DNA of 57,052 bases, the filler included, from Bipalium vagum (lineage: Eukaryota), in NCBI GenBank assembly GCA_037834085.1. It is 3 parts of 3 records of this genome, joined end to end, with 100 filler letters (N's around TTAATTAATTAA, not from the genome) between each part and the next. Parts side by side here need not be neighbours in the genome. Positions count along the whole stretch, not along the records: positions 1 to 18,915 come from JBBMKC010015614.1; positions 19,016 to 36,866 come from JBBMKC010048790.1; 1 more part is not named here. The stretch is one strand, 5' to 3'. The notes beneath the pieces are model-generated. The model was given only the letters and a program-made list of their open reading frames with translations, was not told the DNA's origin and did no database searches. Of this stretch, positions 5,801 to 44,690 are shown piece by piece (the first letter of the stretch is position 1; every line of letters starts with the position of its first letter). The translations under genes were made by a program, and so were the position numbers.

Positions 5801-5999
5801 ATTTTGATATATTGCTTTTGATATTATTTAAGTATTTTAAAAAGTTGTAATAAATAATAATATTAGTACTAGTAATACTAGATTATTATTATCACTAACG
5901 ATTTTTAGGGTTTTTGCCCTTGCCAAACACAAAAAATACGTATGATGATGGGAAAGTATGGAGATTCTAATACTTGGAAAGACAAACCAAACCAAAATT

Positions 6000-8379: not shown

Positions 8380-9281
8380 ATCCCTAAAAAGTTTTAAATA
8401 CTCAAGAAGATCAACAGTGATATCAAAGTTTTTTTGAAAAATAGGACATTTACAATCCGCTATTACGAATAATGAATTCTTAAAGATATTTTGAACAGAG
8501 AAATATCCAGGAGAATTACATTGAAAATCTTTAAATACTTTTAACAAAACAACTTCAACATACCAATTTACGGGACCTGGGTCGGATATTCATAAAAAAT
8601 CAAAAAAAGATGAATTAATAAATAATTATATTGAAAAATGAAATTTAAATATTTCCCCAATTCCTATACCAGATTACATTTCAATAAATAGAATTGTTCA
8701 AGCTGCAATAGAATATTATTTAAAATATCTTTCAAAAGAATTCTTGATTTGCTGATGTTCCAATAGTATATAAAATGAACAATATTCAAAATCAAACCAC
8801 AAGAGAAAAACTTGAAATAGCTTTGGTAAAGTTAATTATGAAGAGAAAGGTTGAACTTGGATTAGGATTACCAAGAATTTTAAAATTACTTTTAACAGAA
8901 AAACTATTTAAAAGATCCCAAGAATTAAAACTAGAAAATCGAAAGCAATTTCCAAATGAACTTTATAAAGAATTTAGAAAACCAAAAATATATCTTAAAG
9001 TTAAGGTTTTCACTTTAAATATATTTGGAGTGCTAATTTAACATTTGTACCTACGGAAACTATGTGGTTATTCTAACAGTAATTGTTTTATACGCAAGGT
9101 ATACTTTACTGTTCCTTTAAAAAATAAAACTGGAAAATCTATAACAAATGCTTTTGATGACATTCTTCAGGACTACAAAAGAAAACCTAAAAAACTTGAT
9201 AATTTTTGTAATTATACTGAACTAGAAATTTATTCAACTGAAAATGAAATAAAAGCAGTTGTAATAGAAAGATTTGTCTGA
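8380..9281 (+). mobile_element. Polinton/adintovirus fragment 1: degenerate PLA2-like + rve integrase
   Basis: KYPGELH..YQFTGPGS..INRIVQAAI then TTREKLEIALVKLIMKRK..NELYKEFRKP..VPLKNKTG..YSTENEIKAVVIERF; collinear with 15600-16500. Confidence 0.85.
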
Positions 9282-14758: not shown

Positions 14759-14885
14759 AGTAGTGTGTATAACCAGACTTTGAGGACTGGACCCCAACTT
14801 TTTTTTTCACTCACCCTCCAGAGGAAGGCTCCCTCAAAATAGAACAAAAATTTCCTCTCCTCAAAGTCTGGTTATACATACTACT
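14759..14885. repeat. 28-bp inverted repeat (27/28 match) with 5'-AGTAGT...ACTACT-3' ends
   Basis: agtagtgtgtataaccagactttgagga (14759-14786) versus tcctcaaagtctggttatacatactact (14858-14885), 71-nt spacer. Confidence 0.95.
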
Positions 14886-15599
14886 TCATTTATTATATTA
14901 CTAGTTTTTAAAACTGAAAAAATGGAAACCAAAAGAAACGATTTAATAACCTATCCATTCTAGAATTAAATAAAATTGAAAATAAATTTCCACAAAATAA
15001 ATATTATGAAATATTTTTAAGAGCTAAAAATTTTAATTTAGAAGAAAAAAGATTTAAAATCTTATTCTAAAGATTTATTATGGTTAATAGATAATTGCAC
15101 ATTTGAACCATATAAAAATAAAATAAAAGAACAACATAAAAATCTGAATGATATAATTATTCATAATTACTCGAAAATAAATAAAGAATTAAGTTTAGAA
15201 ATATTAAATTTTATTAAGGAAAATTAATAAAATTCTTAAATAAAACTCAATAATTAATTCTTAATAATTTTTTAATTATAATTATTTTTTAATAATCTTT
15301 TTTTCCTAAAAAATGGTTGAAAAAGGTATTGTGAAATTTGTGATAAATCTATTAATAAAAAAATAAATGTCATCATGAAAATACAAAAATACATGAAATA
15401 AATTTTCAATGAAAAAACAACGGGTAAAAACAACGACAATGACGAAAAATCGACGATATCTATGAATAAAAACAACGACCTAAAAAATAAAACAACGACT
15501 CAAAAAACAACGATTAAAAATAACAATAACTTCAATAAAAAAACAACGACTAAAAATAAAAATCGAAATATTCAAAACATTCAAGAAAAATATCCATCT

Positions 15600-16925
15600 T
15601 TTTTATAAAAACAGGAGGAGACATCCAATCACAAATTACAAATAATAAATTTTTAAACAAATTTACAACTGGAAAATACCCAGGTGAATTACATTTAAAA
15701 TCTTTAAATCCTTTAAATAAAACAAATCCAGTCTGCCCAATTTTACTGGACTTGGAACTCATGCTGATCCGCGTTTAGAAAACTATAATAAAATATTAGA
15801 AAATTATGAAGACAGTCAAGATTTATCAATTCTCCCAATTCCAAAACCTGACTCAATTCCAATAAATCGAGTAGATCAAGCAGCTATTAAACATGATGTA
15901 AAATATATGTCAACAGATTTAAAAGATAGACATGTTGCAGATGTTGAAATGATTCATGAAATGAACAATATTCAGAATTCAACTCCAAGAAAAAAACTTA
16001 AAAGAGCAATTGTAAAATTAATTTTGAAAGGAAAAATAGCTTTAGATTTAGGATTAGAAAGAGCAAGTAAAAATGTGGCAAATGAAAAATTATTTGAAAA
16101 CTCAAAAATTTTAAATCCAGAAAAATCAAAAATACTTGCAAACGAACTTCATAAAGAATTTCGAAAACCAAAAACTATTTTAAAAGTAAAATTAAATAAC
16201 AAAGATGTTATTTGGTCTGTAGATTTAACATTTGTCCCAGGAGAAAGAGATTATAAAATAATTCTAACAGTTATTAATTTATATACTTGTTTTGCTTTTA
16301 CTGTTCCTTTAAAAAATAAATCAGGACAATCAATTACAGATGCTTTCGATAAAATATTTGAAGATTCTAATAAAAACCAGAAAAATTATTGGTTGATAAA
16401 GGAACAGAATTTTATAATAAAACATTTGAAAATTTTTCTTATGATAATGAGATTGAAATTTACTCAACAGAGAATGAGGGAAAGCAGTTGTCATTGAAAT
16501 TTTTAAAAGAACTAAAAAATTTAATGTTTAAAAAATTTACAGAACAAGGAAATTGAAAGTGGTTACATCTTTTACCAAATTTAATTAATTTTTATAATAA
16601 CAAAATTCATAGTTCAATTGGAATGACACCTAATGAAGCAAGTAAAAATCCTGAGAAATTAAAAGTTATAAAAGAAGAGAGTAAAACTATTGGAAGTAAT
16701 GAAATTTTGAAATCTAAAACTAAATTTCATATTGGAGATAAAGTTTGAATTTTTAAATATAAAATTAAATTTGAAAAAAGATATACTGTAAAATGGACAG
16801 ATGAAATTTTTATAATAAATAAAATTTATTATACAACTCCAGCTGTATATGGAATTATGGATAAAAATGGAAAAGAAATAATTGGAAGGTTTTATAAAAA
16901 TGAACTTCAGAAAACTTTGTTTTAA
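15600..16925 (+). pseudogene. PLA2-like domain fused to Polinton rve integrase (frameshifted)
   Basis: One open frame from 15721: NFTGLGTH..INRVDQAAIKHDVKY..DRHVAD..LANELHKEFRKP..IWSVDL..VPLKNKSG; after a frameshift KLLVDKGTEFYN..YNNKIHSSIGMTP..GRFYKNELQKT, stop at 16923-16925. Confidence 0.88.
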
Positions 16926-17681
16926 TACCTCTTTTTTATCAATTAAAAAATATTAAATTTAATATAAAAAGATTTTATTATGAACCCACCAAGCTACTAA
17001 TCCATTTTACTAACAGTAAATTTCATTAATTTATTTAATTAAATTTATGATTTTCTAGGTAAAGAAATTGAAGAAAAACTGAAGGAAAGAAAAAGGTATA
17101 AACAATACATGAAAATGAAACAAAATAATCTGACTATGGTTGAGAAAAGACTTCAACAAAATATGAGAAAATGAAACAAAATAATAGAAGAAATTCAAAT
17201 AATGGAAAGGAAGATTTTTGAAGCGAATAAAGCTATCCGAAAATTAAGATTAGGAGTACAGGGAAATAATCCAGTAAATCAAAATGATATCAATTAACTT
17301 TTAGCATAGCTTTAGAGTTAGAGTTAGATTTAAAATTTAATAATTTTTATTATTTTTTATTGAATTTGTTTATGTATTTTATTTTATTATTATTTTATTT
17401 TAAATATGACACCTTTTTTGGACACAGTATCCATAGTAGGTGTCTAATAGTGAAAAATATAGACCTAAACATCTTTTCTTGTTTATGACCTATATTTTTT
17501 AAAATCTGTTTAAACTGTTTAAACAGTTTAAACAGTAGAAATAAAATTAACTAGAATGCAGCAAGCATGAAGAGTAAAAAGCAAGCAAGCGTGAAGGAAA
17601 GCATCATTTATAAAAATGTAAGAACTTAATAAACATGTAAAATCATTGATATACAAAAATATTTCAAATTTTTTCCTAAAA

Positions 17682-18279
17682 ATGGAAATCACAGAAGATA
17701 AATTAAAAGATATAACAGAAGTAGGTAAACAAAAGTCAATTACTTTAAATGGTGAAAAAATGGTTATCCAAAAAAATAATTAATCAAGTTGAGGAACAAG
17801 CCGAAGAACAAAAATCAGGCGGCGTACTTCCATTAATACCAATTTTAGGATTTATATTTGCAGCTTTAGGAGCAGCTGGTAGAGCTGCAGGTGGAATAGC
17901 AACTGCAGTTATAAAATCAAGAGGCTAAAAAAATGCTGAGAAGGAAAAGATTGAATTGGAAAAAAAGAAATTAGAAATGGAAGTTCAAAAACGTAAACCT
18001 AAAGAGGAACAAAAATCTGGAGCTGGACTTTACTTCGATATATATTTTGGGAAAGGATTAAAAGATACAATTTTAAATAGTTCAGAATATAAAGGTTTAC
18101 ATAAATCAGAAAGACAAGAATTAAAAGAATTATTGCAAAAGCTTTGTAAAAATAAAATTAAAATTATTAAACAAGGAAAGGGACTTTATTTTGATCCCTA
18201 TGAAGAAATATCATTAGAAATATTTCCCAACATAAAAAATTTCCAAAAAAATCTAGAAAAAATAAAAAACAAAAATTGA
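17682..18279 (+). pseudogene. Adintovirus virion core / pX-like protein with hydrophobic Gly/Ala-rich helix
   Basis: KSGGVLPLIPILGFIFAALGAAGRAAGGIATAV followed by repeated GxGLYF motifs; internal stops and a frameshift. Confidence 0.65.
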
Positions 18280-18400
18280 TGAATGCGATTGTGAATATTG
18301 TGAGAGACGGAATATTATAGGAAATATGGATTTTACAACTTATGAAATTTTGATTATTTTATTAGAGGTGAAGATTAATTTTTGTTCTTATTTTTTAAAA

Positions 18401-18831
18401 ATGTCACAAAACGTATTAGAATTTTTTGTAAATATGGAATTAATTCAACATCAAATTTTGATTTAATAGATTTTGCTGAGGATTTAAAAATGCCCTTAAA
18501 AGATTTGATGCTGGATGAAGTTAAAGAAAAACATTTCGAAAAAGAAATTCCACTAATTATTAAATACCAAAATACAAATCAAAAAAGAATTCATTGGGTT
18601 GGTTATTTAAAAAATTTATATTTTGATTCTTATGGCTTACCACCACTTGAAGATTTAAAAAAGCATGTTAAAGAATATAATAAATTTGATTTTCAGTCTG
18701 AAACAGATTTAGAGTATTGTGGAAAATTATCTTTATATGTTTTATATCAACTTTTTCAGGGAAACAAATTTGAGGAAAATGAAGTAAAACTTCATGAGAG
18801 TTTCGCTCGCGTTTTAAAAGAAATAGAATAA
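18401..18831 (+). CDS. Adenain-like cysteine protease (Polinton PRO), 5' end frameshifted
   Basis: Catalytic motifs in order IHWVGY, YFDSYGLPP, QSETDLEYCG. Confidence 0.85.
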
Positions 18832-18915
18832 AAATCAAAAATGGGACATTGGCTGCACTCATCTGAAGAAGCATCACATTTTAACCGAAGGTAAACCAAT
18901 TAATATCAAACCTTT

Positions 18916-19015
18916 NNNNNNNNNNNNNNNNNNNNNNNNNNNNNNNNNNNNNNNNNNNNTTAATTAATTAANNNNNNNNNNNNNNNNNNNNNNNNNNNNN
19001 NNNNNNNNNNNNNNN
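18916..19015. other. Assembly gap with TTAATTAATTAA linker
   Basis: 100-nt N block with a central all-frame-stop linker. Confidence 0.97.
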
Positions 19016-20289
19016 CATTGCACGATTATACCTTGATCTCAATACATTTCAATGAATATACTCTTCCAGGCATAAAATCTGATAATTCGTCATCTTTAAA
19101 AAACTATTTTGTTTAAACAAAAATTAGTAAATATCAATATTGTTTTGTATAATTTCATTATTTTTTGAGGGTTATTTTATTTACTGAGTATTTCCAAAAT
19201 AAAATTTCAGGGAATTTTTAAATTACTTTTCGAGTGTTAATTAATTTTTCATTATTAATATTATTAACATTATTATTATTATTTCTAGTCTTTTATGATT
19301 TTACTTAGTTATATTTCCCCTGGGATGGTCTTTTGTCGGACTGTAGATCATCCATAAGCAACAAGATATGACCACCGCCCCATTCATCATGGAAGATCAA
19401 AATCTAAAAAATAAATCTTGTCAAATTAAGTCTGAAAAATAATCTGGGCTGTGTGGATCTGTGCAGACTCCCACCTTCTGACCAACCAATTCAACCAAAC
19501 CCTTCAAAAACGTCAATCCAGCCAAAGCAATCAAAACAATAACATTATCGATTTTAAACATTTTAGTGATTATTTAGTGATTATTTAGTAATTCATTTGA
19601 TGTATAAAAAACAATATATAATTTGTATTTATTTATTTGTAAAAGTTAAAACCCGGAGTTTGATTCTAATAATTTTCTATTAACTCTTTGTCTCGGATTT
19701 TAACTTAAAAGTAAAATTGTATTTAAAAAATAAAGTTGTTAGATTTATATAAAAAATATATTTTATAAAAAGCAACTTTTTATCTCAGTTAATCGATTGA
19801 AATTTTATCGTTTTAAAAGTTTTTAGTTTATCAATTTAAAAGTTTAAAAAGGTTTTGAAATCAGTATCTGTGAGAAGTTTACTTTTAGTAATTAAAATTT
19901 TAACTTCGAACGTACGCTTACTAAATCCTTCTGTATTTGCATATATTTTATGTTAAGTTCCTAAAAAGACCACTATCGATATTCTTAATCCGATTAAATA
20001 TTAACAATTATTTTTATTTTCATAATAAATTATCTTTTTAGGTCGTTTTAAAATTTAACAGATCAGTATAATTTCTCTTCTTCCCGCTTGCACAGAGAAA
20101 GGATATTGAAAGCCACCCGATCACCTTTATAGAAATATTAGAAGTGTTAAAAATGTTATTTTAGAAAAAATAAAAGAATTTAAAATTTTAAACATTAAAT
20201 TTTTTTTAAAAAGTGCAAGCTTAGCTTTTGAAATTAAAGGTTTTGAGTCCTTTTAAGATTGTAAAAACAAATACATTACTAGAGCTTTT

Positions 20290-20660
20290 ATGTAAATATG
20301 GAATTAACTCAACTAAAAATTTTGATTTAACTGATATTGCTGAAGAATTAGAAATGCATTTAAATGCTTTAATGAAAGATGAAGTAACAGAAAAAAGAGT
20401 TAAATAGAAATTCCATTAATTATTAATTATCAAAATACAAATCAAAAAGAAATTCATTAGGTTTGTTATTTTAAAAATTTTTACTTTCATTCCTATGGTT
20501 TATCACCACTTGAGGATTTAACAGAAAATTTAAATGAGTACAACAAATTAGATTTTCAATCTGAAACAGATTTCGAGTATTGTGAACAATAATCCACATA
20601 TGTTTTATGGAAAATTTTTCAGGGAGAAAATAAAAAGAAATTTTAGAAGAAATAGAAAGA
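20290..20660 (+). pseudogene. Second adenain copy (degenerate)
   Basis: CKYGINSTKNFDL..INYQNTNQKEIH*VCY..FHSYGLSPLEDL..FQSETDFEYC; collinear with 18425-18830. Confidence 0.85.
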
Positions 20661-20773
20661 ATTAATTTTGATCTAACTCCATAATTGCCTTTATTTAGTT
20701 TTTCTCTAACCTCTTTTCAATATACTTCTTCAGTTCACAAGGGTCATCTTCAAAGGAAAGATTTTTAAATATT

Positions 20774-21437
20774 GTACACTGTTTAAATTGAAATAAAACA
20801 GTTTTCGCATTTTTTGGTAAAAAAGTGACCTTAATAGCGACCACAAAAAAATTAATTAATTACACTTTTTGTTTTTAATATATTTCCATAATTTATAATT
20901 CTCATTAAAAAGAAATACAAATAAATATCGAAAATCTCTGGAAAAATAAACAAATTATGATAATTTTATGTCAACGTAGAGACCCATTGATTTTTTAAAT
21001 TGTTGCAGAAATATCACAGTTTTATAAATTTAAATAAAAGTGACTTTGACTTCCTGAAAATGGTAATTTTTATTTTATTTTAGTGATTATTTTTCAATCT
21101 GAAACGTTCCTCACAGAGAATGGCAAAATCGGAAACACAGCGCACCAATGGGGTCCAAACAAAGTATCATTTTTCATAGATTAGGGCTTTCGTGACCCAA
21201 AGGCCAGTTGTAAACCAGGACCTGCTCTGCTCTCATTTTAGTCTTTACTTTCAGTGGTTGCACAAGCTTAATTTGCATACATATGTCCGTCCACAATGCT
21301 CGGTAAGAACCTCCACGAATGACATTGATAATTGTCAGATTTTTTTCGAATATTTTATTTAATAAAATAAACATTTTCATTAGTGCTCTCCTCGGCTTAT
21401 TTTGGTGAATCTTTTACATTTCAATTGCGACAGTTTA
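20774..21437 (-). mobile_element. Deleted Tc1/mariner-superfamily element with imperfect TIRs
   Basis: tacactgtttaaattgaaata (20774) versus the reverse complement taaactgtcgcaattgaaatg (about 21437); internal IKLVQPLK and NWP..SPNL fragments. Confidence 0.4.
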
Positions 21438-22281
21438 TTTTGTTGTCATTGTTATAAGGGTAGTATTGGTAGAGTAGGAGTGCAAAGGTGATCGGGTGGC
21501 TTTCAATATGCTTTCTCTGTGGAAGTATCATGAAGAGAAATTGTAATGATGCACACAGCACATTATATTATTTTTCAGATTTAATCTGACGAGATTTATT
21601 TTTTAGATTTCGACCTTCCGTGATGAATTATACGGTGCTCATATCCTGTTGCCTATGGATGATCTTGAGTCCGACGTGCTATTGTAAAACATCTTACTTT
21701 ACAGGTTAGAAGATATTCAATTAGAAAAATGATAACTTACGCTGTAAAGATATTTATATTCGAAGATCACTGTTCTACCTCATTTCATTTCTAACCAAAA
21801 GGAGACAACCCTTCTTCACAGGACTTCTGTAAAAGATGTAATGAAAAATTTCGCAGATTTACCACATAGTTACGTTTTTGATCTCTCTTATACTCACAAG
21901 CTTGTTGATTCAAAACCAGTTTTTCCTTGTCATTCCTGTACTTTTAACAATATATTTTGTTTTAATTGATGACTTTTTTATCTTTACTTTAAATGCTTAC
22001 ATTGTACAACGACGCTTAACGCTTGATATAATTATGAAGGGTTACTTCATATCTTTGTTTGTGGTTGATGAGTTTCATTTCATTTGTTCTACTCCTTTTC
22101 TTTTTTCACTTATATCTCTACTTTTTCATCAGCTTACTTGTGTTTCTTTTGCACATATATCAGAAAAACATATTTCTGATAATATGATACCCCAGGGTCC
22201 AACATTAAGTAAAAACGTCGAAAGAGTAACATCTGATATCAAATTTTATAACGAATAAAAAATATACGAATCCTTTTTCAG

Positions 22282-25200
22282 AAATAGAAAAATGTACCAT
22301 GAATAAACTTGGGAGGGAATACATTGGCACTAAAAACGTGACTAAAATTGGACATCACTGTTTATATTGGAGCAAAAAATTGCTGAAAAAAATTGATGGA
22401 AATAAAATTGAGGGCATCAATCCCAAAATAGATAAAAACTACTGCAGAAACCCTACCAATTTTCCTAATGGACCTTGGTGCTTCATTGATTCAAAAATCT
22501 CCGAATGGGAGTATTGTGATATCCCTCCATGTATAAAGGGTGAGAAGGACTATTAATTAATAATGATTAATCGAAATTATAGAACGAAATTGGTGTAAGG
22601 AAACTGCTTCGGGCTCCGAATATATTGGAACAATGAAGGTTACAAAGTCCGGCAAGGTCTGCCAGCCGTGGATCAATCAAAACAAACATCCTGCTGAATC
22701 ATTTCCGGAAAGGAATTTGGAAGACACGGAGAACTTTTGCCGAAATCCAACCAATGTTGATTCAGGACCCTGGTGTTATGTGGATGACGGATTTTTGACA
22801 TCGGAGCGTTGTGATGTCGAAATGTGTGAAGACGGTAAGGGACTGATACGGAAAATTGAAACATAATAAAGGTCTTGTTAGAACTAAGCCAAATTGAATA
22901 TTTCGGAGGCTATGATTACTTGAAGACGATTCCGGATAATCATCAGATAATTTACTTCAACCCCATGTTAGTAAACTTTACAATCACTGTGGAAATCAAG
23001 TCGGGTAATGGAGACGTAAAGTGAACCATATTGTTATGATGCATATTATAGATTTATGGAACGAGGATGTGCAAATGAAGACTTCTCTATGGATATCAGC
23101 GTATGATTATAAGTGCCAGAAAGACCTAAATGAATACAATTATTGTTCAAAATCTTTCTTCACTCTGAAAAACAACAAAGTGATACTGACTTACCGTTGC
23201 AATTCTGTTACATATTCATCAATATTTATCTCCCCCATAAATAAGGAGGAATGCAAGCTCAGCTACAAAATTTACGAAGTATATGATGTTGATAGTCAAC
23301 CAAGTCAAGTCTACCTGGATTATATTGAAAAGGTAAAGAATAATTAATGTACTATACTCTTAAAATATAAGCAAGATATCACTTTGAGTATCGCTTTTGG
23401 TAGTATAACACAACGAGATTTACCATGTACCTGATATACTGATCAATAACTTGTAGTATTAAACGTTTGCTTCGAAAAGTTTTATTTAACGGCTCATTTG
23501 CTGATAATTTCATTGTATCTTCTTTCATTTTGGTTGTGAGATTTAAGGTTCTGAAAGAATTGACAAACCTCTGTTGCTGTCTCTCTCAGGTTTTCCATAT
23601 TGCATAAATCAGCTGTATAATTAATGACTATTTCGGTCGCAGCATGTGAATCTCTTCCAATAACATTCGACTCTTGGTTTTTGAATCCATAACTTTCCTT
23701 CCACCGTTCTGACCAGACCATCTTTAAAACGGAAATAAGATGTAATTTTCTTTTCAATATCTTCTTTAATCTGATCGATTTCATTTTCATTATTCTGCCA
23801 TTTATACACTGCCTTTTCTTTACTGTTTTTATATCTAGAATGCTGAGATGTTCATCTACGTGAGAAATTATGGTGTTATTAGCTTTTTTGTCTTAAACCT
23901 GAATTCTATTGCTTTGTGATCTGTTCTCAAAAGTAATGCTTAAAGTGGTTACAAAAATAATATATTGCTAATAGATCCTTTCTTGTGATTTAGTATCATT
24001 TTTCATTTACTGTTCATTGCATGTGATCCATACGCGATCACTCTCTCTATTCTACTATCGGTGATCTGTGACAACATTGCTCCAAATTTGTAGAGTTTGG
24101 GTGATGGTCTTAACCTTTCATTTTGACATTACTAATGTGGAACAAATGCCAGACAATCTTTATGGGGCAAAATATTTCATTACGGAAGACTTAGAGAACG
24201 CATAATTCCAAATAATATTAATAAAAGAGCTGCAGGAGAAGACGGACTTTTCTACTAAAACGGACAATAATACTTCACAAGAATACTTTTTGATATTGCC
24301 GCAGTGCCAGGAACGTTCCAGTAATTATTGACATACTTATGAGATGGGTTAGAAGGACCAGTGTTGTATAAAAAATTTGACTACAATCAATAAGCATGAT
24401 GAAGAGATAAAATACGTCATGAAGGAATAATGAATTCTTAGATTTTGAATACCAAAGGTTGTTTAGGTTGACATTTTCAAGTTTTTTGTATTTAGAAACT
24501 TTAGAAATTTGATGGACTCCATGAATATAGAATTGCAATTTCCGAGCCTGTATAATCATAATACTATCGGAATCATAAGAAAGACAATTCCGTACAATCA
24601 AAGATTGCACTAATGTTTCTCTACATGATGATGATTGGAGGAATTTGAGAACGAGCATACCAGATATTAAATAAACAGGTAGAATATCTGGCGACAAAGA
24701 GTAAGGCTGAATGTTTTGAAGGAAGGCTGAAGTTAGCATTTCAGAAGAGGAAAACAAGAATTGAAAAAATTGAGGAAGCTCTTACTTACAGAAAAGTAAA
24801 TGATACTACAGATCTTTTTGTCTCGAAGATTATAGCAATGGTGAAAAGAATTTTGTCGAAGAATCTGGGTGAAGAGAAGCTGACAAAACATCTGCTTTTA
24901 CACTGTGGTAATGCGCAAGGCAGATATATCAGAGGAGATTGTCGAAATCATGAAGATGGTCGACAAAGTAGAAGAAATGGTCAAAGTTTTAATATCGTAC
25001 GAAGGGCCTCAAAGTATGGAAAAAAACATCAGATATGCAGAAGAACCGTCCATATTAGTAGAGAATGTCCGAATAGACCTAAACCAGACTGTTTAGCTTG
25101 CGGAAAGATTGGCCACATTAAGCGACACTGTCTAATTATAATATATACAAAATGCAAAAGGACTGGACGTTGATCTGAGTCATGTAACGAAAATCAAGAA

Positions 25201-28200: not shown

Positions 28201-29404
28201 AAACTTTCAGTCTATTGAAACTGACTTTCGTCGAAATTTGATTAAGTGGCCTTATGTAAAAACAAACTTTACTTTGCGTAATGATACGAGGAAGAAAATA
28301 ACAACGGGTTTCGGAGGTCTTTTGTCATTACAATGCAAAGAGGATGAAGATATTGTCAACATTCACCTCACTAATGTAATTCAAGCTACAATGTTTGATA
28401 TTAGGGACAAAGATCTAGCCAAGAACTGGACTCATCTCCAAAGGCTCAATACACCTTGGGCGGTTGTCGCTGCTGATTCTGTGGTATTTGTTGTGCCCTC
28501 CTATGCTATTCGTAACATAGCTGACATTAAATCCGTCATGATCCTATATGATTTAATGATCAAGGAAGAATTGCACTTGAGAGGAAGGTCCATCCGGAAT
28601 CGTCGAAGAGATGTTGTATCTACAGATATAGAAATATCAGACGGATATTTCCAAGCTGGCTACCCTATTCAATCTAGAATATCTTATTACACAAATCCCA
28701 AGGATGACATGTATTTGTTTGATATACCAAGAATAAAAAATAAAGGTTCCTGGAGTATTTTGCAAATGGTAGGACATAATCTAAAAAGCAGTTTATTCAT
28801 AATACCAGGTACAAATGACTTAATGGATAATATCTTTACTTTGGTCGCAACGGAATCAGTCACTGGTCAGAGCTCATGGTTACCAAACGAAGGCTGGGCT
28901 CAAGAAGAAGATATCCTCAATTTAGCAGTTACATACATCAACAAAGAAACTTTCTCCGAATTGATATGGAGAAGATATTTACCACTCGCAATCTTTGCTC
29001 AACTTCGAAATAGTTTCGGCTGGGAATTGTACGCTCAGTTATTTCGTCGCTATGATATTATAAGTCAAGAGACGACATATTTATCACCGGATGCAACAAT
29101 TCAAACTTGGATAAACGAATCGTCTTTCATTGCCAGAATGAATTTGGTTCCTTTTTACGATTTATGGCATTGGCCCATTGACCAAGGCTTGAATGAAAAG
29201 CTGTCTCAATTTCCCTATTTTATGCCAGACGATTTTCTTACAAAAGAAGTTGTTGAAGCGGTTGAAAAAATCATGGACAAGTATGGCGGAGCGAAACACT
29301 TCAAACGATATCCCATCCCCATTCCAATCATAGTTGGTCCTGCCTTAAATAAATTGACAATTGAAGGGGTCAGGGTTATAGAAGAAATGACAGTTTTCCA
29401 TTGA
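22282..29404 (+). CDS. Kringle-kringle-unknown domain-TCAF/FAM115 (M60-like) protein; exons 22282-22539, 22583-22834, 22882-23004, 23052-23332, 27176-29404; 5' exon(s) not located
   Basis: Two kringle exons (NYCRNP..GPWCF..WEYCDIPPC; NFCRNP..GPWCY..CDVEMC) flanked by phase-1 introns of 43-47 nt. Phase-0 donor AAG|gtaaag at 23332 joins phase-0 acceptor tttag|AAC at 27176, in frame with the 738-aa ORF. Confidence 0.72.
23400..25889. mobile_element. Nested gypsy relics inside the large intron (minus-strand pol fragment 23450-24120; plus-strand gag/IN 24500-25860)
   Basis: Zinc knuckles CRRTVHISREC / CLACGKIGHIKRHC; integrase SSPYYP..GQVERQFR; PPT-like aaaaaagggg near 25841-25850. Confidence 0.75.
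25890..27067 (-). mobile_element. Miniature internally deleted gypsy element with two LTRs, PBS and PPT
   Basis: About 110-bp direct repeat 25890-26001 / 26956-27067; 3' LTR 26113-25890 is TG...CA; PBS TGGCGCCCA at 26955-26947; PPT GAGAAGGGGGA just before 26113; RT (YLDN) and IN (IERQFKT) fragments. Confidence 0.88.
27176..29404 (+). CDS. Large terminal exon: TCAF/FAM115-like M60-like peptidase domain, zinc motif degenerate
   Basis: Intact frame with PGVAVYPG, YQLGLFSSPG, TGFGGLL, PWAVV..VVFVVPS, DIEISDGYFQAGYPI, LAIFAQLRNSFGWELY, NLVPFYDLWHWPI; the HExxH position reads QMVGH. Confidence 0.85.
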   Translation, partial: NKRYLSDLTDIGSLSPTPNTGSFNAYLGNAIPFAVSSDSRVVLTISEVGEGRVGFAGSIKYLDPEYEFDMRHFYQKVFGDNHAKPEELTKELVQELFLQIIRHEPLKSSVIWNCHNSIGVLHIEKLLELIKRGLKIVIAFNPNFFDFRIEDTEFFPILKAAGIWINNFDFEGKVDILVEPDLKTLPLVHLLHFASQNYIKLWETTVYIEARIRDMPDWIFTENTMSNSLNDDLKKFYDIFLPIVEWAIPCYDMKLRHKFYIDTLRVYGSMLKKPLQPGLEAPGVAVYPGKMYSETIDFINVKMRVNTKFKSEVYQLGLFSSPGVEFSVKIKSLRSTYCLLHINFQSIETDFRRNLIKWPYVKTNFTLRNDTRKKITTGFGGLLSLQCKEDEDIVNIHLTNVIQATMFDIRDKDLAKNWTHLQRLNTPWAVVAADSVVFVVPSYAIRNIADIKSVMILYDLMIKEELHLRGRSIRNRRRDVVSTDIEISDGYFQAGYPIQSRISYYTNPKDDMYLFDIPRIKNKGSWSILQMVGHNLKSSLFIIPGTNDLMDNIFTLVATESVTGQSSWLPNEGWAQEEDILNLAVTYINKETFSELIWRRYLPLAIFAQLRNSFGWELYAQLFRRYDIISQETTYLSPDATIQTWINESSFIARMNLVPFYDLWHWPIDQGLNEKLSQFPYFMPDDFLTKEVVEAVEKIMDKYGGAKHFKRYPIPIPIIVGPALNKLTIEGVRVIEEMTVFH

Positions 29405-29899
29405 AACATTTTATTTATTTGTTCAATGTTTTTGTTTAAACGGTTATGGTAAATGTTTTCAATAAATTTTTATCTTTCACTTAAGTAAAAGAGAGTAAAA
29501 ATGTAAATTTAGCACCATGTTTATGTTCCTGTTATATCGCTATTACTATATATTTATGACGGCAGTAAAACCAAAAAATCGAAAAAAATATTGATAAATA
29601 TATTTGTGAAGTTCGTAATAAGAATATATCAAGATATTATAAGCAATCTAAACAAAATGCAATTTTAAAATTACATGAATATCAAAAAAATATTTTGTCA
29701 ATGTCAATTAAAAGAATTTAAATATTAAAACAAATGGTTCTATAAATTAAAATGATTATAATTATTAAATGTTTTAAGATTATAATGTTAGGTATTGAGT
29801 GCAAGCATTCATTGATAAGGCAGCTGATGAAATTATAGAAAACAAAATAGATATTTAGTAATTTTCGTTTAAAAAATCAATTTTATTTTAAAAAAATGT

Positions 29900-30465
29900 A
29901 ATAATTTGAACTTAGAAAAAATAGATATCATCAAGATTTAACAGTAAATATGTGATTAATTAGAAATTTGTTTAAATCCAAAACAGCAAAAAATTTAAGT
30001 AAAAATGGAAATTTAACTTTTAGTTTATTACTAACTGCAAATACTTTGGATTTATCAGAAGCAATTTTTGTTTTTTGTATTTGAAATAAAAAATATAAAA
30101 GCAGATGAAAGAATAACATTTCAGAATAACTTTTTTCCTTTTTTATTTTCTAATGTAGTTTTAAAATTAGGATCAGCAGAAGTAGAAACAATTGAATATT
30201 TAAGAACTACAAATTCTATAAAAAATTTTGTATTAATTGATGAAAATGATGATGGAGACATTTTTTGGATGGCATTCTGATAAAATTAAAGAAGATCCTA
30301 ATATAGGATTTAAAACAAGAAAAAATTATATTCAAATAAAAAATTTATTGGTGAATTTCTTTTAAAATTAATGTTTGGATTTTTACAATTATTAATAATT
30401 ATATATAATATGCAAGTAGAATTAACTTTTTCAAGAAACCCAACATATAAAGATTCGATAAAATA
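29900..30465 (+). pseudogene. Major capsid (hexon-like) protein, N-terminal half
   Basis: NLSKNGNLTF..LDLSEA..NNFFPFLFSNVVLKLGSAEVETIE..GW..NIGFKTRKK..LKLMFGF..VELTFSR..DSI; matches my recollection of the Polinton MCP pattern. Confidence 0.65.
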
Positions 30466-30870
30466 GAATAAAATATAATACCTATCATAGAAATAGAAAA
30501 CAAGAAAATCCAATTTTAAAACTTCAACAAAAATTATATACCAGTTTAAGTAGATGTTTAAGAGAACGGAGAGAATATGAACAAATAAAAATGTTAATCG
30601 GATGTAGTTTTGATTTTATATATGAGCTGATTGAGTTTCAATTTTATTATGGAATGACATGGGAAAACCAAGAATGTTTTAGGCATATTGATCATGTTCT
30701 TCCAGTTTCTTAATTTGATTTTGAAAATAAAGATCATTTTAAAATATGTTGGAATTGGAAAAATTTAAGACCATTAAGATCTGATAAAAATCTAAAAGTA
30801 ATAAAATTTATTATAAAGAATATTTATTTCAAGAAATTAAATCAAAGTATGCTGAAAAAGTATATAAATA
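30466..30870 (+). pseudogene. NCLDV-type HNH / endonuclease-VII-like protein fragment
   Basis: LIGCSFDFIYELIEFQFYYGMTWEN..HIDHVLPVS*FDF..ICWNWKNLRPL..KNL. Confidence 0.7.
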
Positions 30871-30929
30871 AGAAACAGAAATATTTAAAAATTATTTAAA
30901 ACTAATAAGATAAAAGATTTTTAAGAAAT

Positions 30930-31580
30930 TTCACTTTTTTTGCTTTAATGTCAAAATAAATCATCTTTTCACCTTCAAATTTTATTTCCTTAAATGTTTC
31001 ATGTAATAAAACACAATTCATAATTCCTTTAAAATCATTATCTTTTTCAATAAGCAAAGTAATTGTTGCTTCATTGATACATAAATTATTTGCTTGATCC
31101 GTTAAAACAAAACAAAATATAGAATATAAATTTTGAAATTCTAAGATACTTAATTGTGGATCGTTATTAAAATATTGACAAGAACTTACATAATTTAAAT
31201 TTCACTATTGTAACATTTTTCAAACTTTTTTGGTTTTATAGGATATAATGAATCAACAAGTTGAACTTGAACGATTTAATTTTATTTAAAATAAACAAAC
31301 TATTATTTTTTGTATAATCAAAACGTGTTTCTCTTAAAGCAACAAATAAATAAATTGGAATACTAGGAATATTATATAATTGTAAGGTTTGAGTTGTACC
31401 ATCTGTTAAATTTAGTTCTATACAGTTCCTATTTAAAAAAATCAATATTAATATTTTTACCATCTGTCATTCTAGAGACCAGATTTAATTTTGCGTTATT
31501 ATTTAATTTTAATGAAGGAATAAATAATAACAATTTTTAAAATTTAATTTACTCTCATTTGGTTCCCTAAAATATTTTAT
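30930..31580 (-). pseudogene. Major capsid (hexon-like) protein, C-terminal half
   Basis: KLLLFIPSLKLN..INIDFLNR..PIYLFVAL..NNSLF..SLYP..EFQNLYSIFCFVLTDQ..ITLLIE. Confidence 0.65.
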
Positions 31581-32393
31581 TAAAAATTTTTTCATAATAG
31601 TTATCTGTAATTCTTTTTTGCTTTTTTAATTTATTTAAAAATTTTAAAATTAGATGATCAAGATTATCATGTCCTGATTTTTTAGCTGCTAAATATTTGT
31701 TTAATGCTACAAATTAAACAAGAGTATGTTTTGGTTTGTAAATTTTATAACCTTTTCCTGCTTTTTTCTATTTCATCAAGTTTGGTTATTTGGCTTTTAG
31801 TAAGTTTTATATAATTAGAGTTCATTGCTCCTTTATTATAGTTTATTAGATATACATAATTATTCAAATCTTTTAAACTATAATCTCTTGTCCAGTTAGT
31901 ATAAAATATTTTACTATAATCTTCACCTTCAATTAATGATTTTATACCTTTTGATAGTCTAAAATTAATTTCTTTACCAATTTTAAATAACTCAAAAGAT
32001 ATTTTATTTGTTGTTAAAATATTATTTTTTTATTGAAGATAATAATGTTGGTGGTGATTCTTGATTAATACAAAAATAGTTTTCTAAATTAAAATCTTCA
32101 TATAGTGGTGGTTGATCAATTTTTTTATTAAAAATATTATCAGTTGTTTCATCAATTAAATTCTCAGTTTTAATTTTCTCTCTTTTTTCAGGTTTTTCCA
32201 ATAATTTTTTATTAGCATATTCTAAATCTTTTATTTTTTCAGACGTTTTAGTTTCAATAACTTTATTCTCATCTTTCATATCTGCTTGTCTACGTTTATC
32301 GATTGCACCAGTAACAGGTTTATGAAAAATTTTTAAATCTCGTTGTATTCCATTTTGTAACTCCCATTGATTTATTATTTTATTATTATATTC
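31581..32393 (-). pseudogene. Polinton conserved ORF with C-terminal LAAKKSGHDN motif
   Basis: Coiled-coil N-terminus with IFHKPVTGAID; C-terminal LNKYLAAKKSGHDNL resembles the LxASxxAGN/H motif of Polinton ORFs. Confidence 0.5.
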
Positions 32394-32604
32394 ATTTTAT
32401 ACTGCTATTAATTTTTTTAATATTTCAATTTCATTTTTACTATCAATTAAATTTTGTTTTTTTGAAAAAAAAATAATTATATAATCTTACTATACCAAAA
32501 ATCATAAATATCTTGAAGAGAATAGATTTCAATATATTGTAAGAGAGAAAAATTTTCTAACAAATATAAAATTTTACTTAATTACAATTTTTTTATTAAA
32601 TATT

Positions 32605-33299
32605 TCATTGATTTTTTTCAAAAGAATGTTTATTAATTTTTCTATTAATATTTTTCAGTGTTTTTCGATTCTCTTTTTTAAATTCTTTTTTAAGTTCATT
32701 TTTTGATTCATTATTTATTTTTTCAACAATTTTATTTTCCTTAATTTTTTTAATAATTTCTTTACAGTCATTAATAATTATTTTTGCTTGTTCAATTTCT
32801 TCGTTAGTTAAAATTTTATCACCATAAGCTTTCATTTGAAAAATATATAGTTCACTAACTGAATTTTCTATTGATTCACAAATTTCTCTATAAAGATTTT
32901 TCTTTTACCTGTAATATTTTTACTAATTGTTTTAGTAATAAATAAATTTAATGCAGTAAAAATTGAAGTACTAATAGGAATATAGATAGCTAATCCAATT
33001 TCTAAAGTAGAAACTCCTGGTATTATTGCAGATCAAACTCAAACAATTCCTGTTACAACATTTGTTCCTTATTTTAAATGAGAATCTATTTTAGTATATT
33101 TAAATTATAATTTTTTATAATGTGTTAATAAGTCTTCTAAAACTTTTTTTTCATTCATAAAATTTTCAATATTTAATTTTGCTAATTGATCTATTAAAGG
33201 ATTTGAAAATCTATCAGATTCAAATTTTTCATCTTCATAAAATTTATTTTCTAAATTTGGATATAGTTTTGCAAAAGGAGCAGTTGGCTCAATTTCCAT
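32605..33299 (-). pseudogene. Polinton membrane protein with N-terminal PTAP/LYPNL, hydrophobic hairpin and KAYGDKILTNEE motif
   Basis: ORFs 33105-33299 and 32605-32835 are linked by a hydrophobic stretch (AIIPGVSTLEIGLAIYIPISTSIFTALNLFI) with stops and frameshifts. Confidence 0.6.
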
Positions 33300-33499
33300 T
33301 TTTTAATATAAATTTTGAAAAAAACTTTAAAGATTTTTTAAATATTTTATATTGTATAAAATTTAGAAGAAGTCTCAGAACGGTACATTTTAACGTATAT
33401 TTGGATAAAACTTTTTCAAAAAAATTCAATCTCTTCCATTTCACTTTTGAATAAATTTCTTTTAAAAATCATGAGTTCATAAATTTTTATATTTTTTAA

Positions 33500-34385
33500 A
33501 TTAAATTGAAATTCATACTTTTTATTTGATGGAAAAATTGTTGATTTTTTTTCTTAATTATAGAAAAAATGTAAATATGTTGGAAAATTAAGTACATTTT
33601 CAAAATATTAAATCGGTCCCGAATTTAGATTCTGTTACTTCTGTTCGTCCTATTGATTTTCCATTAACAAAAAAATAATTCCTATTATGATTATATCAAC
33701 CAAAAACATGATATTTATTTTCTGTTCCAAAATTTATAATATTATCTCTTTTTAAACAATTTTTTCTTCAACTAATATTATTGTAAAAGGTTCAATTAAA
33801 GAATAAGAAATATTTCCAAAAAAAATATCCATCATTATTTGCAAATATTTAGACCATGTATTATTTATTTATTTTTAATATTAGTGATTTCCAAAATGAA
33901 TGCCAAATATTTGGTTTAAAAGTTTCATTTAATTTTTTGTAATCATCTTCTGCATAAAAGATTTTTAATTTTGAAATATATTTTTCCGATTTTAGTTTTT
34001 CATCGAGAAGTTCTTTTTCTATATTTTTATTTTTTATTTTTCATTCATTTAAGTTATTTTCAAATTTTTTAATATTAATTGTTTTATCATTTACATTCAT
34101 TGTTTTTTCACTTCTTATTATATTTAATTTATCATCTATATATTTTTTATTTACAACATCATTGTATTCAGTAGGATTTGAAATATTTATTATTTTATTA
34201 TTATTCATATTTAAAATTTCTTTCATGGAATCTGCAGTAACATTTAAAAATTTATTTTCACTTTTATTTCTAAAAAAATTTACTTCTTCTTTTATTTCAT
34301 TTTCTTCATCTTCATCTTCATCATAATGAGTTGGTATAAATATATTCTCCATTTTCAGCAATATTAACAAATACTTGCTCACCAA
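33500..34385 (-). pseudogene. Fibre-like viral protein
   Basis: LNMNNNKIINISNPTEYNDVVNKKYID matches the NKIxNLxxPxxxxDAxNKxYVD repeat of viral/phage fibre proteins; 3' limit uncertain. Confidence 0.5.
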
Positions 34386-34419
34386 TATTTTTAATTAAAT
34401 TTTTAATTATAAATTTTTA

Positions 34420-34775
34420 AAAAAAAGCATGTTCTTTTTCTTCTAAAGATTCCTCAAATATTTTATTATTATATAAATGATATAAAACATATAAAGATAA
34501 TTGCCCACAATATTCCAAATTTGTTTCAGACTGAAAATCAAATTTGTTGTATTCTTTTACATGTTTTTCTAAATCTTCATTTGGTGGTAAACAGTAAGAA
34601 TTAAAGTAAAAATTTTTATAATATCCAACCCAATAAATTCCCTTTTGATTTTTAGCTTGATAATTAATAATTTATGGAATTTCTTTTTAACTCTTTTTCC
34701 TTTAACTTCATCTTTTATTAAAACTTTTAAAGGCATTTCTAATTCTTCAGCAATATCAATTAAATCAAAATTTGT
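34420..34775 (-). pseudogene. Third adenain copy (degenerate)
   Basis: NFDLIDIAEELEMPLK..INYQAKNQKGIYWVGY..YFNSYCLPP..FQSETNLEYCGQLSLYVLY. Confidence 0.85.
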
Positions 34776-35224
34776 AAATGATCTAAATATTCAGTAAACA
34801 TCATTATGTAATTCAAATTGAATTGTCTCATTAGCTCTGTATAAGAAAAATTAAATTCTCCAGCTAGATAACTGTAGATAAATATTTTTATTTTTTTAAT
34901 TATTTAATTTTCGATTAAAGTATTTTCTTCAAGTATACTCATTTTTATAAAATATAAAAATAAAAAGTCTTAATAGTATGATACTAAAATGAAATATTTT
35001 TATTTTTTTAATTATTTAATTTTTGGTGTATCTTAGATATACCATATTAATTTAATTAAATAAATATATTGTGCAAAAAATAACTAAATTGGAATTAATT
35101 AATTTAACTTAATTTAATATTTTTAGATAATTTAATATCTTTAATTTAATTAAATATACTATAAAAAAATAACTAATCTGAAAAAGTCATCTTTAATTCA
35201 TTAGTTTTAATTACTCAAATCCTT

Positions 35225-36110
35225 TAAAAACTACTTCTGTGAAGTTCATTTTCGTAAAAGCGTCCTAAAATCTTTTCTCCCTTTAAATCCATAATTCCAT
35301 AAACGATTGAAGTCGTAAAATAAATTTCATTTGTCCATTTAGCAGTATATCTTTTTGAAATTTATTTTTATATTTAAAAATTCTTACATGATCTCCAAGA
35401 TAATATTTTGATTTTAAATTTAATTGAAAAATAGGGGAAATTATATCAATTGTTGTAGTTTTTAAACTTTATGATTTTTAGAGGCATCATTAGTTGAAAT
35501 ACCAATTGAACTATGAATTTTGTTATTATAAAAATTAGATAAGTTTGGTAAAAGATGTAACCATTTTCGATTTGCCTGTTCCGTAAATTTTTTAAGCATA
35601 AACTTTTTTTAGAGTCTATTAAATCTTTCTGTTACAACTGCTTTTCCCTCATTCTCTGTTTAGTAAATTTCTTTTTCGTTATCATAACAAAATTCTTCAA
35701 AGGTTTTATTGTAAAATTCTGTTCCTTTATCGACCCAAAGTTTTTCTGGAACTCTATTAGAATCTTCAAATATTTTTTTTAAAGCATTTGTAATTGATTG
35801 TCCTGATTCATGTTTTAAAAGAATAGCAAAAGCAAAACGAGTATATAAATCAATCACTGTTAGAATTATTTTATAATCTTTTTCTCCAGGAACAAAAGTT
35901 AAATCTGCAGATCAAATAGCCTTTTTGTTATTTATTTTTAAGAAATTTTGAGGTTTTCTAAATTGTTTAAGAAGTTCATTTGCTAATTGTTTACTTTTTT
36001 CTGGTAGTAAACGTTTTGAATTTTTGAAAAGTTTTTCATTTGCTATATATTTTTTTTGAAGAAATTCCATGTCCTAATCCAGTTTTTCTCTTGGAGTTGG
36101 ATTTTGAATA
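35225..36110 (-). pseudogene. Polinton rve integrase copy (PLA2 part deleted)
   Basis: LANELLKQFRKP..SADLTFVPGEKDYKIILTVIDLYTRFAFA..KLWVDKGTEFYN..VTERFNR..GRFYENELH. Confidence 0.9.
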
Positions 36111-36866
36111 CTGTATTGAATATTATATTACAGATAATTATAACTAAAAATTTATTAAAAATTAATTATTGACTTTTTTTAAAAAAATGATAAATTTTCC
36201 TTCGTAAAATTTTAATTTCTAATCTTACTTCATTTATTTTAAAGTAATTATAAATAATTATATCATTCAGATTTTCATGTTGTTTTTTTATTTTATCTTT
36301 ATATGGGTCAAATGTACAATTTTCTTTTAACCTTAATAAATCTTTAGAATAAGATTTTAAATCTTTTTCTTCTAAATTATGTTTTAAAACTCTTATTTAT
36401 TTTTATTTTTTATTTATTTTTTTATTTATATATTTTATATATGACACATAGTTTACCTCGTTTATAAACACGTTTTTGACGAACGAATGAGTGTGCTTTC
36501 CGAATCAAAACTCCTACTATCTCTATCAAATTCAAAACTGTTAACAAAACCAAATATATCTAAACAAGTAAAATTAGAAATATGTTGTCTAGAAATAAAA
36601 TAACCAAACAAACCATACGAATCAAATTATATCTAATATAAATAATTATAACTAATTATATCCGAAAAAAGATTGCCAACCATAGAATAAATGAAAGTGC
36701 CAATAGCACTACAAAAACAGTTGAGATAGTATATCACTTGAATTGTCGATTTCTAAGAAATCGATTACCATCAATGCGAAGCTTGACACAGAAGAAGCGC
36801 GTTTTAAATTTTTTAAAAAACATTGGCTTTATCAAGTCAATATTCAATATGGAAACTTTAAAGGAC

Positions 36867-44464: not shown

Positions 44465-44690
44465 CAGATGTAACATTTGCTGCAGGAGAAAGAGATTATA
44501 AAATTCATTCTAACTTTAATTGATTTTTTAAACAGAATTTTTCAAATTTTTGGAATATAAAACTGCATTTGAATAAAATACTTGAAGAAAAAAAAATCTA
44601 TTAAAAAAAAGGGTTAATAATAAAACAATTCAATAATAGAAAATTTAAAGAATTTTAGTGTTAACAAAATAGAATTATATGTAATTCAGG
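44465..44690 (+). pseudogene. Short Polinton integrase fragment (fourth copy)
   Basis: DVTFAAGERDYKI..LTLIDF matches DLTFVPGERDYKIILTVI of the other copies. Confidence 0.65.

What the first reader, a model, noticed from the sequence alone, without database searches (positions are those of the whole stretch)
14759..36400. Recurrent endogenous adintovirus/Polinton family with a virion gene set
Seen: collinear, diverged copies at 8380-9281, 14759-18915, 20290-20660, 29880-36400 and 44465-44690. Together they hold four integrases, three adenains, a capsid protein, a fibre-like protein and a pX-like protein. Known: integrase plus adenain plus jelly-roll capsid defines Polintons/adintoviruses. Inference: a high-copy virus lineage of this host, possibly undescribed, repeatedly invaded or duplicated in this region. 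Neither pPolB nor the FtsK-like ATPase was seen in any copy, so these may be deletion derivatives or a helper-dependent subtype.
Basis: partly seen in the sequence, partly recalled or inferred. Interest (0 to 1): 0.7.

Follow-up and report, generated by a model that had tools for sequence, protein, structure and literature searches.

The report
One virus body, three polymerase kits
These are decayed copies of an abundant integrating DNA virus (Polinton/adintovirus) whose capsid and integrase genes occur in this genome with three very different DNA polymerases, each paired with its own hairpin end, which likely means the replication kit (polymerase plus ends) was swapped repeatedly while the rest of the virus stayed the same.

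Summary
The copies are real: three integrase remnants plus a 61-bp scrap, three adenains (profile hits adenovirus protease, E 3e-8), and capsid, fibre-like and pX-like genes. Two inferences fail. The window joins three separate contigs, so nothing clusters 'in this region'. And pPolB and the A32 ATPase sit next to the same genes in other copies, so these are deletion derivatives, not a helper-dependent subtype.

The new point is that one gene body is joined to three unalignable or barely alignable polymerases (Alpha-like, Beta-like, and a third). Each has its own ~125-bp terminal hairpin: 45 of 45 ends followed by a polymerase matched type. Capsid DNA is 93% identical across Alpha- and Beta-linked copies, and integrases behind the two end types are intermixed. 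The window holds one copy of each of these two end types.

Polymerase swaps are published (Starrett 2021; Jeong 2023, ends conserved; Barth 2024/2026, ends and integrase proposed to move together). Ends travelling with the polymerase but not with the integrase was not found in my searches. The scan had not noted this family before. No full-length element was seen in this fragmented assembly.

The parts
8396..9275 (+). PLA2-integrase remnant of a more diverged sublineage; broken
   Evidence: 68% to the copy at 15566-16385; tblastn, 2 stops
14759..14885 (+). End type T1: true left terminus, 5'-AGTAGT, 127-bp hairpin with 28-bp arms; elsewhere paired with the Beta-like polymerase
   Evidence: genome matches start sharply here with unrelated flanks; fold z -7.5; tally
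14922..15300 (+). first ORF, broken, function unknown; T1 and T2 left arms become alike at 14914-14917, just before it
   Evidence: 5 of 8 T2-left loci
15315..16922 (+). zinc-finger/PLA2-rve integrase gene, frameshifted and with stops
   Evidence: PF08398 E 3.5e-4, PF00665; 424-aa homologous frame in another copy, rve E 2e-15; zinc-finger label from the CxxC motif seen in the sequence
17791..18279 (+). pX-like ORF (GGxLPLIP motif) and basic continuation; broken
   Evidence: motif resemblance recalled; no Pfam or PHROG hit; present in 20-26 other contigs
18418..18777 (+). adenain (maturation protease); the contig ends at 18915
   Evidence: contig length
20252..20671 (+). isolated adenain remnant, 10 stops
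29861..30438 (+). N-terminal half of the major capsid gene, inverted relative to the rest of this copy; many stops
   Evidence: PF21738 on a homologous ORF
30444..30880 (+). free-standing endonuclease VII/HNH-like gene, an optional ~700-bp cassette at the capsid gene's 3' end; seen with Alpha-like and third-type polymerases
   Evidence: phrog_1035 E 4e-9 on a homologue, 0.016 here; presence/absence
30884..31577 (-). C-terminal half of the major capsid gene; minor capsid and ATPase are missing upstream of it
31572..32460 (-). conserved ORF of unknown function (working label PZ-like, untested); broken
32653..33302 (-). conserved ORF with a hydrophobic stretch (working label gasX was a guess; no family hit); broken
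33660..34394 (-). fibre-like ORF; broken
   Evidence: PHROG tail fibre/decoration E 2e-6 to 1e-3
34453..34781 (-). adenain remnant, frameshifted
35227..36112 (-). integrase remnant lacking the PLA2 part
36440..36499 (-). inner half of end type T2 (5'-ACACA hairpin; outer half missing here); elsewhere paired with the Alpha-like polymerase
44465..44526 (+). 61-bp integrase scrap

Best explanation
The window holds decayed, internally deleted copies of a high-copy Polinton/adintovirus family whose integrase-to-capsid gene body occurs in this genome with three different protein-primed polymerases, each flanked by its own hairpin terminus, likely because co-resident elements repeatedly recombined inside the body while each polymerase would only copy its own ends. 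SHOWN: gene order in other copies is end > zinc-finger/PLA2-integrase > pX-like > adenain > fibre-like > two unknown ORFs > minor capsid > ATPase > major capsid >< optional endonuclease < pPolB < end. There are three end types and three polymerases in strict pairing; capsid and integrase sequences are shared across the Alpha-like and Beta-like kits; copy ages are similar. INFERRED: the terminal-protein domain of each pPolB recognises its own end, so an element can replicate only when both ends match its polymerase. Crossovers near the first ORF and in the AT-rich spacer behind the capsid gene move the body between kits. One integrase pool accepts both AG- and AC-starting ends. The endonuclease cassette may start such exchanges. 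Nested and tandem insertions supply partners.
For: End-to-polymerase tally, first gene within 1.8 kb inward. T1: 63 ends, Beta-like pol 19, integrase 15, other 2, none 27. T2: 55 ends, Alpha-like pol 16, integrase 12, other 2, none 25. T3: 24 ends, third pol 10, integrase 4, other 1, none 9. So 45 of 45 are on type. Using only contigs found by end searches: 9/0 versus 0/8, Fisher p 4e-5. In 20 T1 contigs fetched afterwards: 7 Beta-like, 0 other polymerase. Capsid C-half identity: Alpha-Beta 93.1% (28 pairs), Alpha-Alpha 92.0%, Beta-Beta 94.4%. Both capsid sublineages hold Alpha- and Beta-linked copies, and an Alpha-only clade is rejected (AU p 1e-27). Integrase T1-T2 85.0% versus 85.9% and 84.0% within types; 6 label changes on the tree against 5.6 shuffled. 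Capsid-to-polymerase junction DNA is shared among independent contigs. All three caps fold (z -7.5, -3.4, -7.6) and share no alignable sequence beyond short T/C runs. Polymerase copies are 83-90% identical within type, like the body genes. A T3-bounded element has a perfect 6-bp target duplication. Left end and polymerase match within one element in 4 contigs (C200496, C209419, C213699, C86811). The terminal protein is a domain of polinton pPolB (PMC11161782, passages).
Against: No full-length element with both ends and all genes was seen; the assembly has 272,664 contigs. The right end and the polymerase are neighbours, so part of the pairing is plain linkage, and copies are not independent draws. 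Two contigs show a mismatch (C198831: T1 left with Alpha-like pol and T2 right; C141191: T2 left with Beta-like pol) and two are unclear (C81694, C219268). No contig shows a T2 left end and an Alpha-like polymerase together. The one T2-T2 pair has no target duplication (2 of 6 letters). The capsid star tree is mostly unresolved (15 of 22 inner branches open). T3 integrases (82-84% to the others) and capsids (clustered, 3 changes against 6.1 shuffled) are partly separate, so sharing is weaker for the third kit. Alpha/Beta labels are inferred without named references in a tree. Polymerase specificity for ends is untested.
Confidence: 0.7

Rival explanations
1. Separate Polinton families inserted into one another and were then deleted, giving dead chimeras that never replicated as such.
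For: Nested arrangements exist: a Beta-like pol interrupted by T2 plus Alpha-like pol in C200218, both polymerases in C253634, and pol inside integrases in C252455. Two end/polymerase mismatches.
Against: All three end types precede the same integrase pool at many different host flanks, so each transposed with this body. Junctions recur at the same places in independent contigs. No second capsid or integrase family tied to one polymerase was found among these loci.
Confidence: 0.12
2. Each polymerase with its two ends is a semi-autonomous mini-replicon (transpoviron-like) that captures the capsid/integrase body.
For: End-bounded units holding only polymerase remnants: 996 bp T3-T3 with a target duplication (C86811) and 2817 bp T2-T2 (C257550). 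Proposed in general by Barth et al. 2026 (section 13 read).
Against: Both units hold only part of a polymerase and no integrase. Simple internal deletion explains them, and such deletions are the rule in this family.
Confidence: 0.12
3. The pairings are short-read assembly chimeras.
For: Very fragmented assembly. The one independent laying showed no contig spanning a whole junction.
Against: Copies differ by 5-15%. Each junction type recurs in 5-11 contigs with their own substitutions. Random mis-joins would not give 45 of 45 on type.
Confidence: 0.04
4. A helper-dependent subtype without polymerase and ATPase.
For: Neither gene is in the window copies.
Against: Both genes lie in the expected places in other copies. 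Each copy lacks a different set of genes.
Confidence: 0.02

Closest known systems
Adintoviruses, Alpha and Beta (Starrett et al. 2021, PMC8502044; part 2 of 6 and passages read)
   Same: rve integrase, adenain, double-jelly-roll major capsid, minor capsid, packaging ATPase, pPolB, PLA2-like and pX-like sequences, inverted ends. The paper already reports Alpha PolB with Beta-class virion modules.
   Different: There the swap is seen across species at protein-cluster level. Here the near-identical body (93% DNA) has both classes and a third in one genome, PLA2 is fused to the integrase rather than to pX, and end sequences track the polymerase.
Nematode Polintons with pPolB1 and pPolB2 (Jeong et al. 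2023, 10.1101/2023.08.22.554363; passages read)
   Same: Two distant polymerases (16% identity) on one conserved body within a species; other genes interspersed in trees; nuclease domains tied to polymerases.
   Different: They state that TIRs were highly conserved across the swap and that both polymerases fall in group 2. Here the ends are unrelated between kits, the polymerases appear to span both groups plus a third type, and the endonuclease is also a free gene.
End-module turnover model and replicase mosaicism (Barth et al. 2024, PMC11296320, passages; Barth, Ha and Aylward 2026, 10.64898/2026.10.13.758929, abstract and sections 11 and 13)
   Same: Morphogenic module kept while TIRs and replicase are replaced; tandem or nested elements and endonucleases proposed as drivers.
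   Different: Their model replaces the integration gene together with the ends and argues that pPolB and DDE integrase share end specificity; their recent cases are single contigs. Here the integrase stays with the body, and the pattern is seen over dozens of copies.
Trichoplax MELD virus integrase and coral (Oculina) PLA2-rve-chromo proteins
   Same: Nearest named homologues (47% and 44%). The PLA2-integrase fusion is common among the 120 listed homologues.
   Different: Best homologue overall is 54% identical, so the family itself is not in the collection.

Membership tests
Polinton/Maverick (adintovirus) | rve integrase | tested here: met
   PF00665 E 2e-15
Polinton/Maverick (adintovirus) | protein-primed family B polymerase in the same element | tested here: met
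   absent from the window copies; convergent with the capsid gene in 26 contigs; PF03175
Polinton/Maverick (adintovirus) | A32/FtsK packaging ATPase | tested here: met
   PF04665 E 5e-11; between minor and major capsid genes in other copies
Polinton/Maverick (adintovirus) | adenovirus-like protease | tested here: met
   His, Asp, Gln, Cys columns conserved
Polinton/Maverick (adintovirus) | [quoted passage not shown] | tested here: met
   PF21738
Polinton/Maverick (adintovirus) | minor capsid protein | tested here: inconclusive
   ORF in the expected place with a recalled penton-like motif; no Pfam or PHROG hit
Polinton/Maverick (adintovirus) | terminal inverted repeats | tested here: met
   the same end precedes integrase or polymerase; both ends in C209419, C86811 and C257550
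Polinton/Maverick (adintovirus) | 5-8 bp target site duplication | tested here: inconclusive
   1 of 2 paired-end units has a perfect 6-bp duplication; the window copies lack a second end
Alpha adintovirus (group 2) polymerase, for the T2 kit | PF03175-type PolB clustering with Alpha references | tested here: inconclusive
   PF03175 above cut-off; nearest Mytilus 52%, then aphid and snake proteins; no named reference tree
Beta adintovirus (group 1) polymerase, for the T1 kit | divergent PolB under 30% identical to the PF03175 type, clustering with Beta references | tested here: inconclusive
   23-25% to Alpha-like pieces over short stretches; endonuclease VII insert; fold hits MELD/adintovirus PolB without separating classes
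Helper-dependent (polymerase-less) subtype | family-wide lack of pPolB and ATPase | tested here: not met
Repbase planarian Polinton families (recalled to exist) | sequence identity to a catalogued family | not testable with these tools
   Repbase not available; host group untested here

The most novel reading that the evidence does not exclude
Polintons here behave as a modular population. Three unrelated polymerase-plus-end kits (one with no close relative found) compete for one shared integrase/capsid chassis and exchange it repeatedly, with a single integrase that accepts both AG- and AC-starting ends. The hairpin caps are the polymerase-specific origins, so virus classes defined by polymerase are interchangeable within one host.
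Probability: 0.4. Interest if true: 0.8.

Novelty: new variant of a known kind. Interest (0 to 1): 0.62.

Why it matters
What in a Polinton's ends is read by the polymerase and what by the integrase is not established in the papers I read. This genome supplies a natural cross: ends co-vary with the polymerase (45 of 45) and not with the integrase. That points to the ~125-bp hairpin caps as replication origins and to a sequence-tolerant integrase. It separates two things that a recent model (Barth 2024/2026) couples, and contrasts with nematodes, where ends stayed the same through a swap. It also shows that Alpha/Beta adintovirus assignment by polymerase can split copies whose capsid DNA is 93% identical.

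Tried and rejected
Pfam on raw six-frame window translations: only weak PLA2 and rve hits. Pfam gave no hit for adenain, minor capsid, fibre-like, pX-like, the two unknown ORFs or the endonuclease; adenain was settled by profile and fold, fibre and endonuclease by PHROGs. The fold search of the Beta-like polymerase piece (pLDDT 70, pTM 0.37) confirmed pPolB but not its class. Third polymerase: no relative in viral contigs or metagenome contigs by single-protein pattern scans (these find close relatives only), and one weak hit among 240 fetched homologues. Sequencing runs: one holder, no RNA holder listed. Its contigs were too short to bridge the capsid-polymerase junction, so no verdict; the inversion in the window copy was not checked against reads. 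The first T2 tally showed one Beta-like case; it lay on the host side of a palindromic end and vanished with orientation-safe patterns. Loose T2 and T1 patterns inflated 'no gene' rows; cleaner counts are (T2, T3; T1). Eight extra 1-kb T2 stretches were too short: 4 matched the patterns, 1 reached an integrase, none a polymerase. The script flag for the endonuclease undercounted third-kit cases (1 of 8; the DNA columns of the same call show 5 of 8). Reading 14759-14885 as a stand-alone MITE was rejected: it is the cap of a longer end. The Atlas gave no answer, so the host group was not tested. The literature search for adenovirus end repair found nothing usable.
Full report
Layout. The window is three stretches that are three whole or separate contigs of G000: C15614 (1-18915), C48790 (19016-36866) and C260901. 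The genome is 441 Mb in 272,664 contigs and the window is 25-29% GC. Two earlier notes of this scan call the host a planarian; I did not test that. Polintons are known piRNA targets in Schmidtea (PMC8532177, passages).

Observation. Self-BLAST links the listed places at 68-84%. Mapping with natural open frames from other copies places integrase at 8543-9275, 15739-16940 and 35227-36112, and adenain at 18418, 20260 and 34453. The minus-strand copy also has a fibre-like ORF, two unknown ORFs and a capsid gene. Nearly all of these remnants carry stops or frameshifts; the 18418 adenain reads without a stop. The site at 44465 is a 61-bp scrap. Adenain is confirmed by a profile of 86 sequences against PDB (1avp, E 3.3e-8) and by fold (pLDDT 91; TM 0.72 to 1nln). 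The capsid matches PF21738, the fibre-like ORF matches PHROG tail-fibre repeats, and pX is a recalled motif only. The integrase is fused to a parvovirus-type PLA2 domain, a fusion common among its homologues; the best is 54% identical.

The missing genes are elsewhere. PF03175 gave 75 matches from 91 scored of 676 candidates, and PF04665 gave 26 from 150 of 318. Seven of 12 ATPase loci share DNA with the window's capsid region. Gene maps of the fetched loci give one order: end, zinc-finger/PLA2-integrase, pX-like, adenain, fibre-like, two unknown ORFs, minor capsid, ATPase, major capsid, then on the other strand an optional endonuclease and pPolB, then end. Each copy lacks a different part. 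The window's minus-strand copy lacks PLA2, pX, minor capsid, ATPase and polymerase, and its capsid N-half lies inverted beyond the endonuclease. So these are deletion derivatives.

Three polymerases on one body. Twenty-six contigs have the capsid gene followed by a convergent polymerase: 11 of one type (A), 7 of a second (B), 8 of a third (C). A and B align only over short stretches at 23-25%. C gave no tblastn hit at E 1e-3 to the long B copies yet matches PF03175. By Starrett's working definition (passages), A looks Alpha/group 2 (PF03175-type; nearest Mytilus 52%, then aphid and snake proteins). B looks Beta/group 1 (divergent, with an endonuclease VII insert). These labels are inferred. 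Over 700 bp of capsid DNA, 7 A-linked and 4 B-linked copies are 93.1% alike between types, 92.0% within A and 94.4% within B; one divergent A copy was left out of these means. A second capsid sublineage (about 70% to the first) also has A and B copies on short branches (support 100/97), and an A-only clade is rejected. That needs at least two exchanges. C copies are more clustered but fall in both halves of the tree. Junction DNA from capsid to polymerase is shared among independent contigs of a type. The endonuclease is a ~700-bp presence/absence cassette at the capsid gene's end: 3 of 11 A, 0 of 7 B, and 5 of 8 C by DNA match. B carries a related domain inside the polymerase.

Three ends. 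Window 14759-14885 is a true terminus (T1, AGTAGT): genome matches begin there with unrelated flanks. The minus-strand copy ends in half of another terminus (T2, ACACA). A third (T3, AGTAGT then a different sequence) was found upstream of polymerase C. Each begins with a ~125-bp hairpin (z -7.5, -3.4, -7.6), and they share no real similarity. The first gene inward was: T1 (63 ends) B 19, integrase 15, other 2, none 27; T2 (55) A 16, integrase 12, other 2, none 25; T3 (24) C 10, integrase 4, other 1, none 9. No end led to another type's polymerase. Restricted to contigs found by end searches the split is 9/0 against 0/8, and 20 T1 contigs fetched later gave 7 B and no other polymerase. The integrase does not follow the ends: T1-T2 identity is 85.0% against 85.9% and 84.0%, intermixed on the tree (16 labelled of 33 copies). 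T3 integrases are slightly apart, at 82-84%. T1 and T2 left arms become alike about 30 bp inside the T1 hairpin, just before the first ORF (5 of 8 T2 loci). Within-type polymerase copies are 83-90% alike, as are body genes (84-90%), so the kits spread over the same period.

Against. No complete element was seen. Left end and polymerase stand in one contig only rarely: 4 matched, 2 mismatched, 2 unclear. Target duplication: 1 of 2 paired ends. Nested insertions exist. Copies are related, so p values overstate independence.

Mechanism. Shown: the pairing, the shared body and the similar ages. From the literature: the terminal protein that primes replication is the N-terminal domain of polinton pPolB (PMC11161782, passages). 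Inferred: each polymerase starts only at its own end, so a viable element needs two matching ends. Two crossovers, one inside the left end and one in the repeat-rich spacer behind the capsid gene, transfer the body between kits. Single crossovers give hybrids like C198831. The integrase tolerates both end sequences, and the endonuclease may cut partners. None of these steps was tested.

Comparison and novelty. Alpha/Beta exchange (PMC8502044), pPolB replacement with conserved TIRs in nematodes (Jeong 2023) and an end-module turnover model in which ends, replicase and integrase change together (Barth 2024; Barth 2026) are in print. My searches and the scan's own notes found no report of several polymerases, each with its own ends, sharing one integrase and capsid pool in one genome. 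The library lacks most subscription papers and Repbase; the supplements of these papers were not read (those of the two preprints are closed) and may hold such cases. The coral survey (PMC11131425, passages) did not bear on it. Verdict: a member of the Polinton/adintovirus kind, new variant, interest 0.62.

Noticed in passing
window 27176-29404 (+): Intronless 742-aa M60/enhancin-like metallopeptidase ORF (PF13402 E 7e-25), 460 bp from the minus-strand Polinton copy; host gene or acquired gene, not resolved.
   Followed up: partly
window 22230-22866 (+): Two kringle-like exons (motif recalled), upstream of a retrotransposon remnant and the M60 ORF.
   Followed up: no
window 19335-21675: Two pairs of inverted ~70-130 bp repeats (84-87%) bracket the isolated adenain remnant.
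   Followed up: no
window 10600-14050, 23400-27100, 320-1020: Decayed LTR (Gypsy-like) retrotransposon pieces; the first ends about 700 bp before the T1 end.
   Followed up: no
window 39648-40109 and 56613-56906: DDE transposase remnants (pogo-like and mariner-like; labels recalled from motifs).
   Followed up: no
window 2848-4413 (+): Glycine-rich exons resembling the ALK/LTK glycine-rich domain (recalled).
   Followed up: no
L321 (C86811) 1593-2588: 996-bp T3-bounded mini element with a polymerase remnant and a perfect 6-bp target duplication: a non-autonomous derivative that moved.
   Followed up: partly
L120 (C257550) 4773-7589: 2.8-kb T2-bounded unit with only Alpha-like polymerase remnants and no target duplication.
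   Followed up: partly
L073, L113, L263-L282: Third polymerase type (40 copies scored of 193 candidates, 75-93% identity) with no close relative found; class unknown.
   Followed up: partly
L013/L057, L014, L022, L025, L031, L075: Further Polinton-type polymerases, ATPases and a capsid-like ORF not tied to T1-T3 ends: the genome likely hosts other families.
   Followed up: no
L158 (C200218), L096 (C253634), L037 (C252455): Elements of one kit nested in or abutting another, possible recombination substrates.
   Followed up: partly
T2 ends, e.g. L046, L060, L062, L103: T2 comes in two loop lengths (about 120 and 270 bp) with the same stem; both go with the Alpha-like polymerase.
   Followed up: partly
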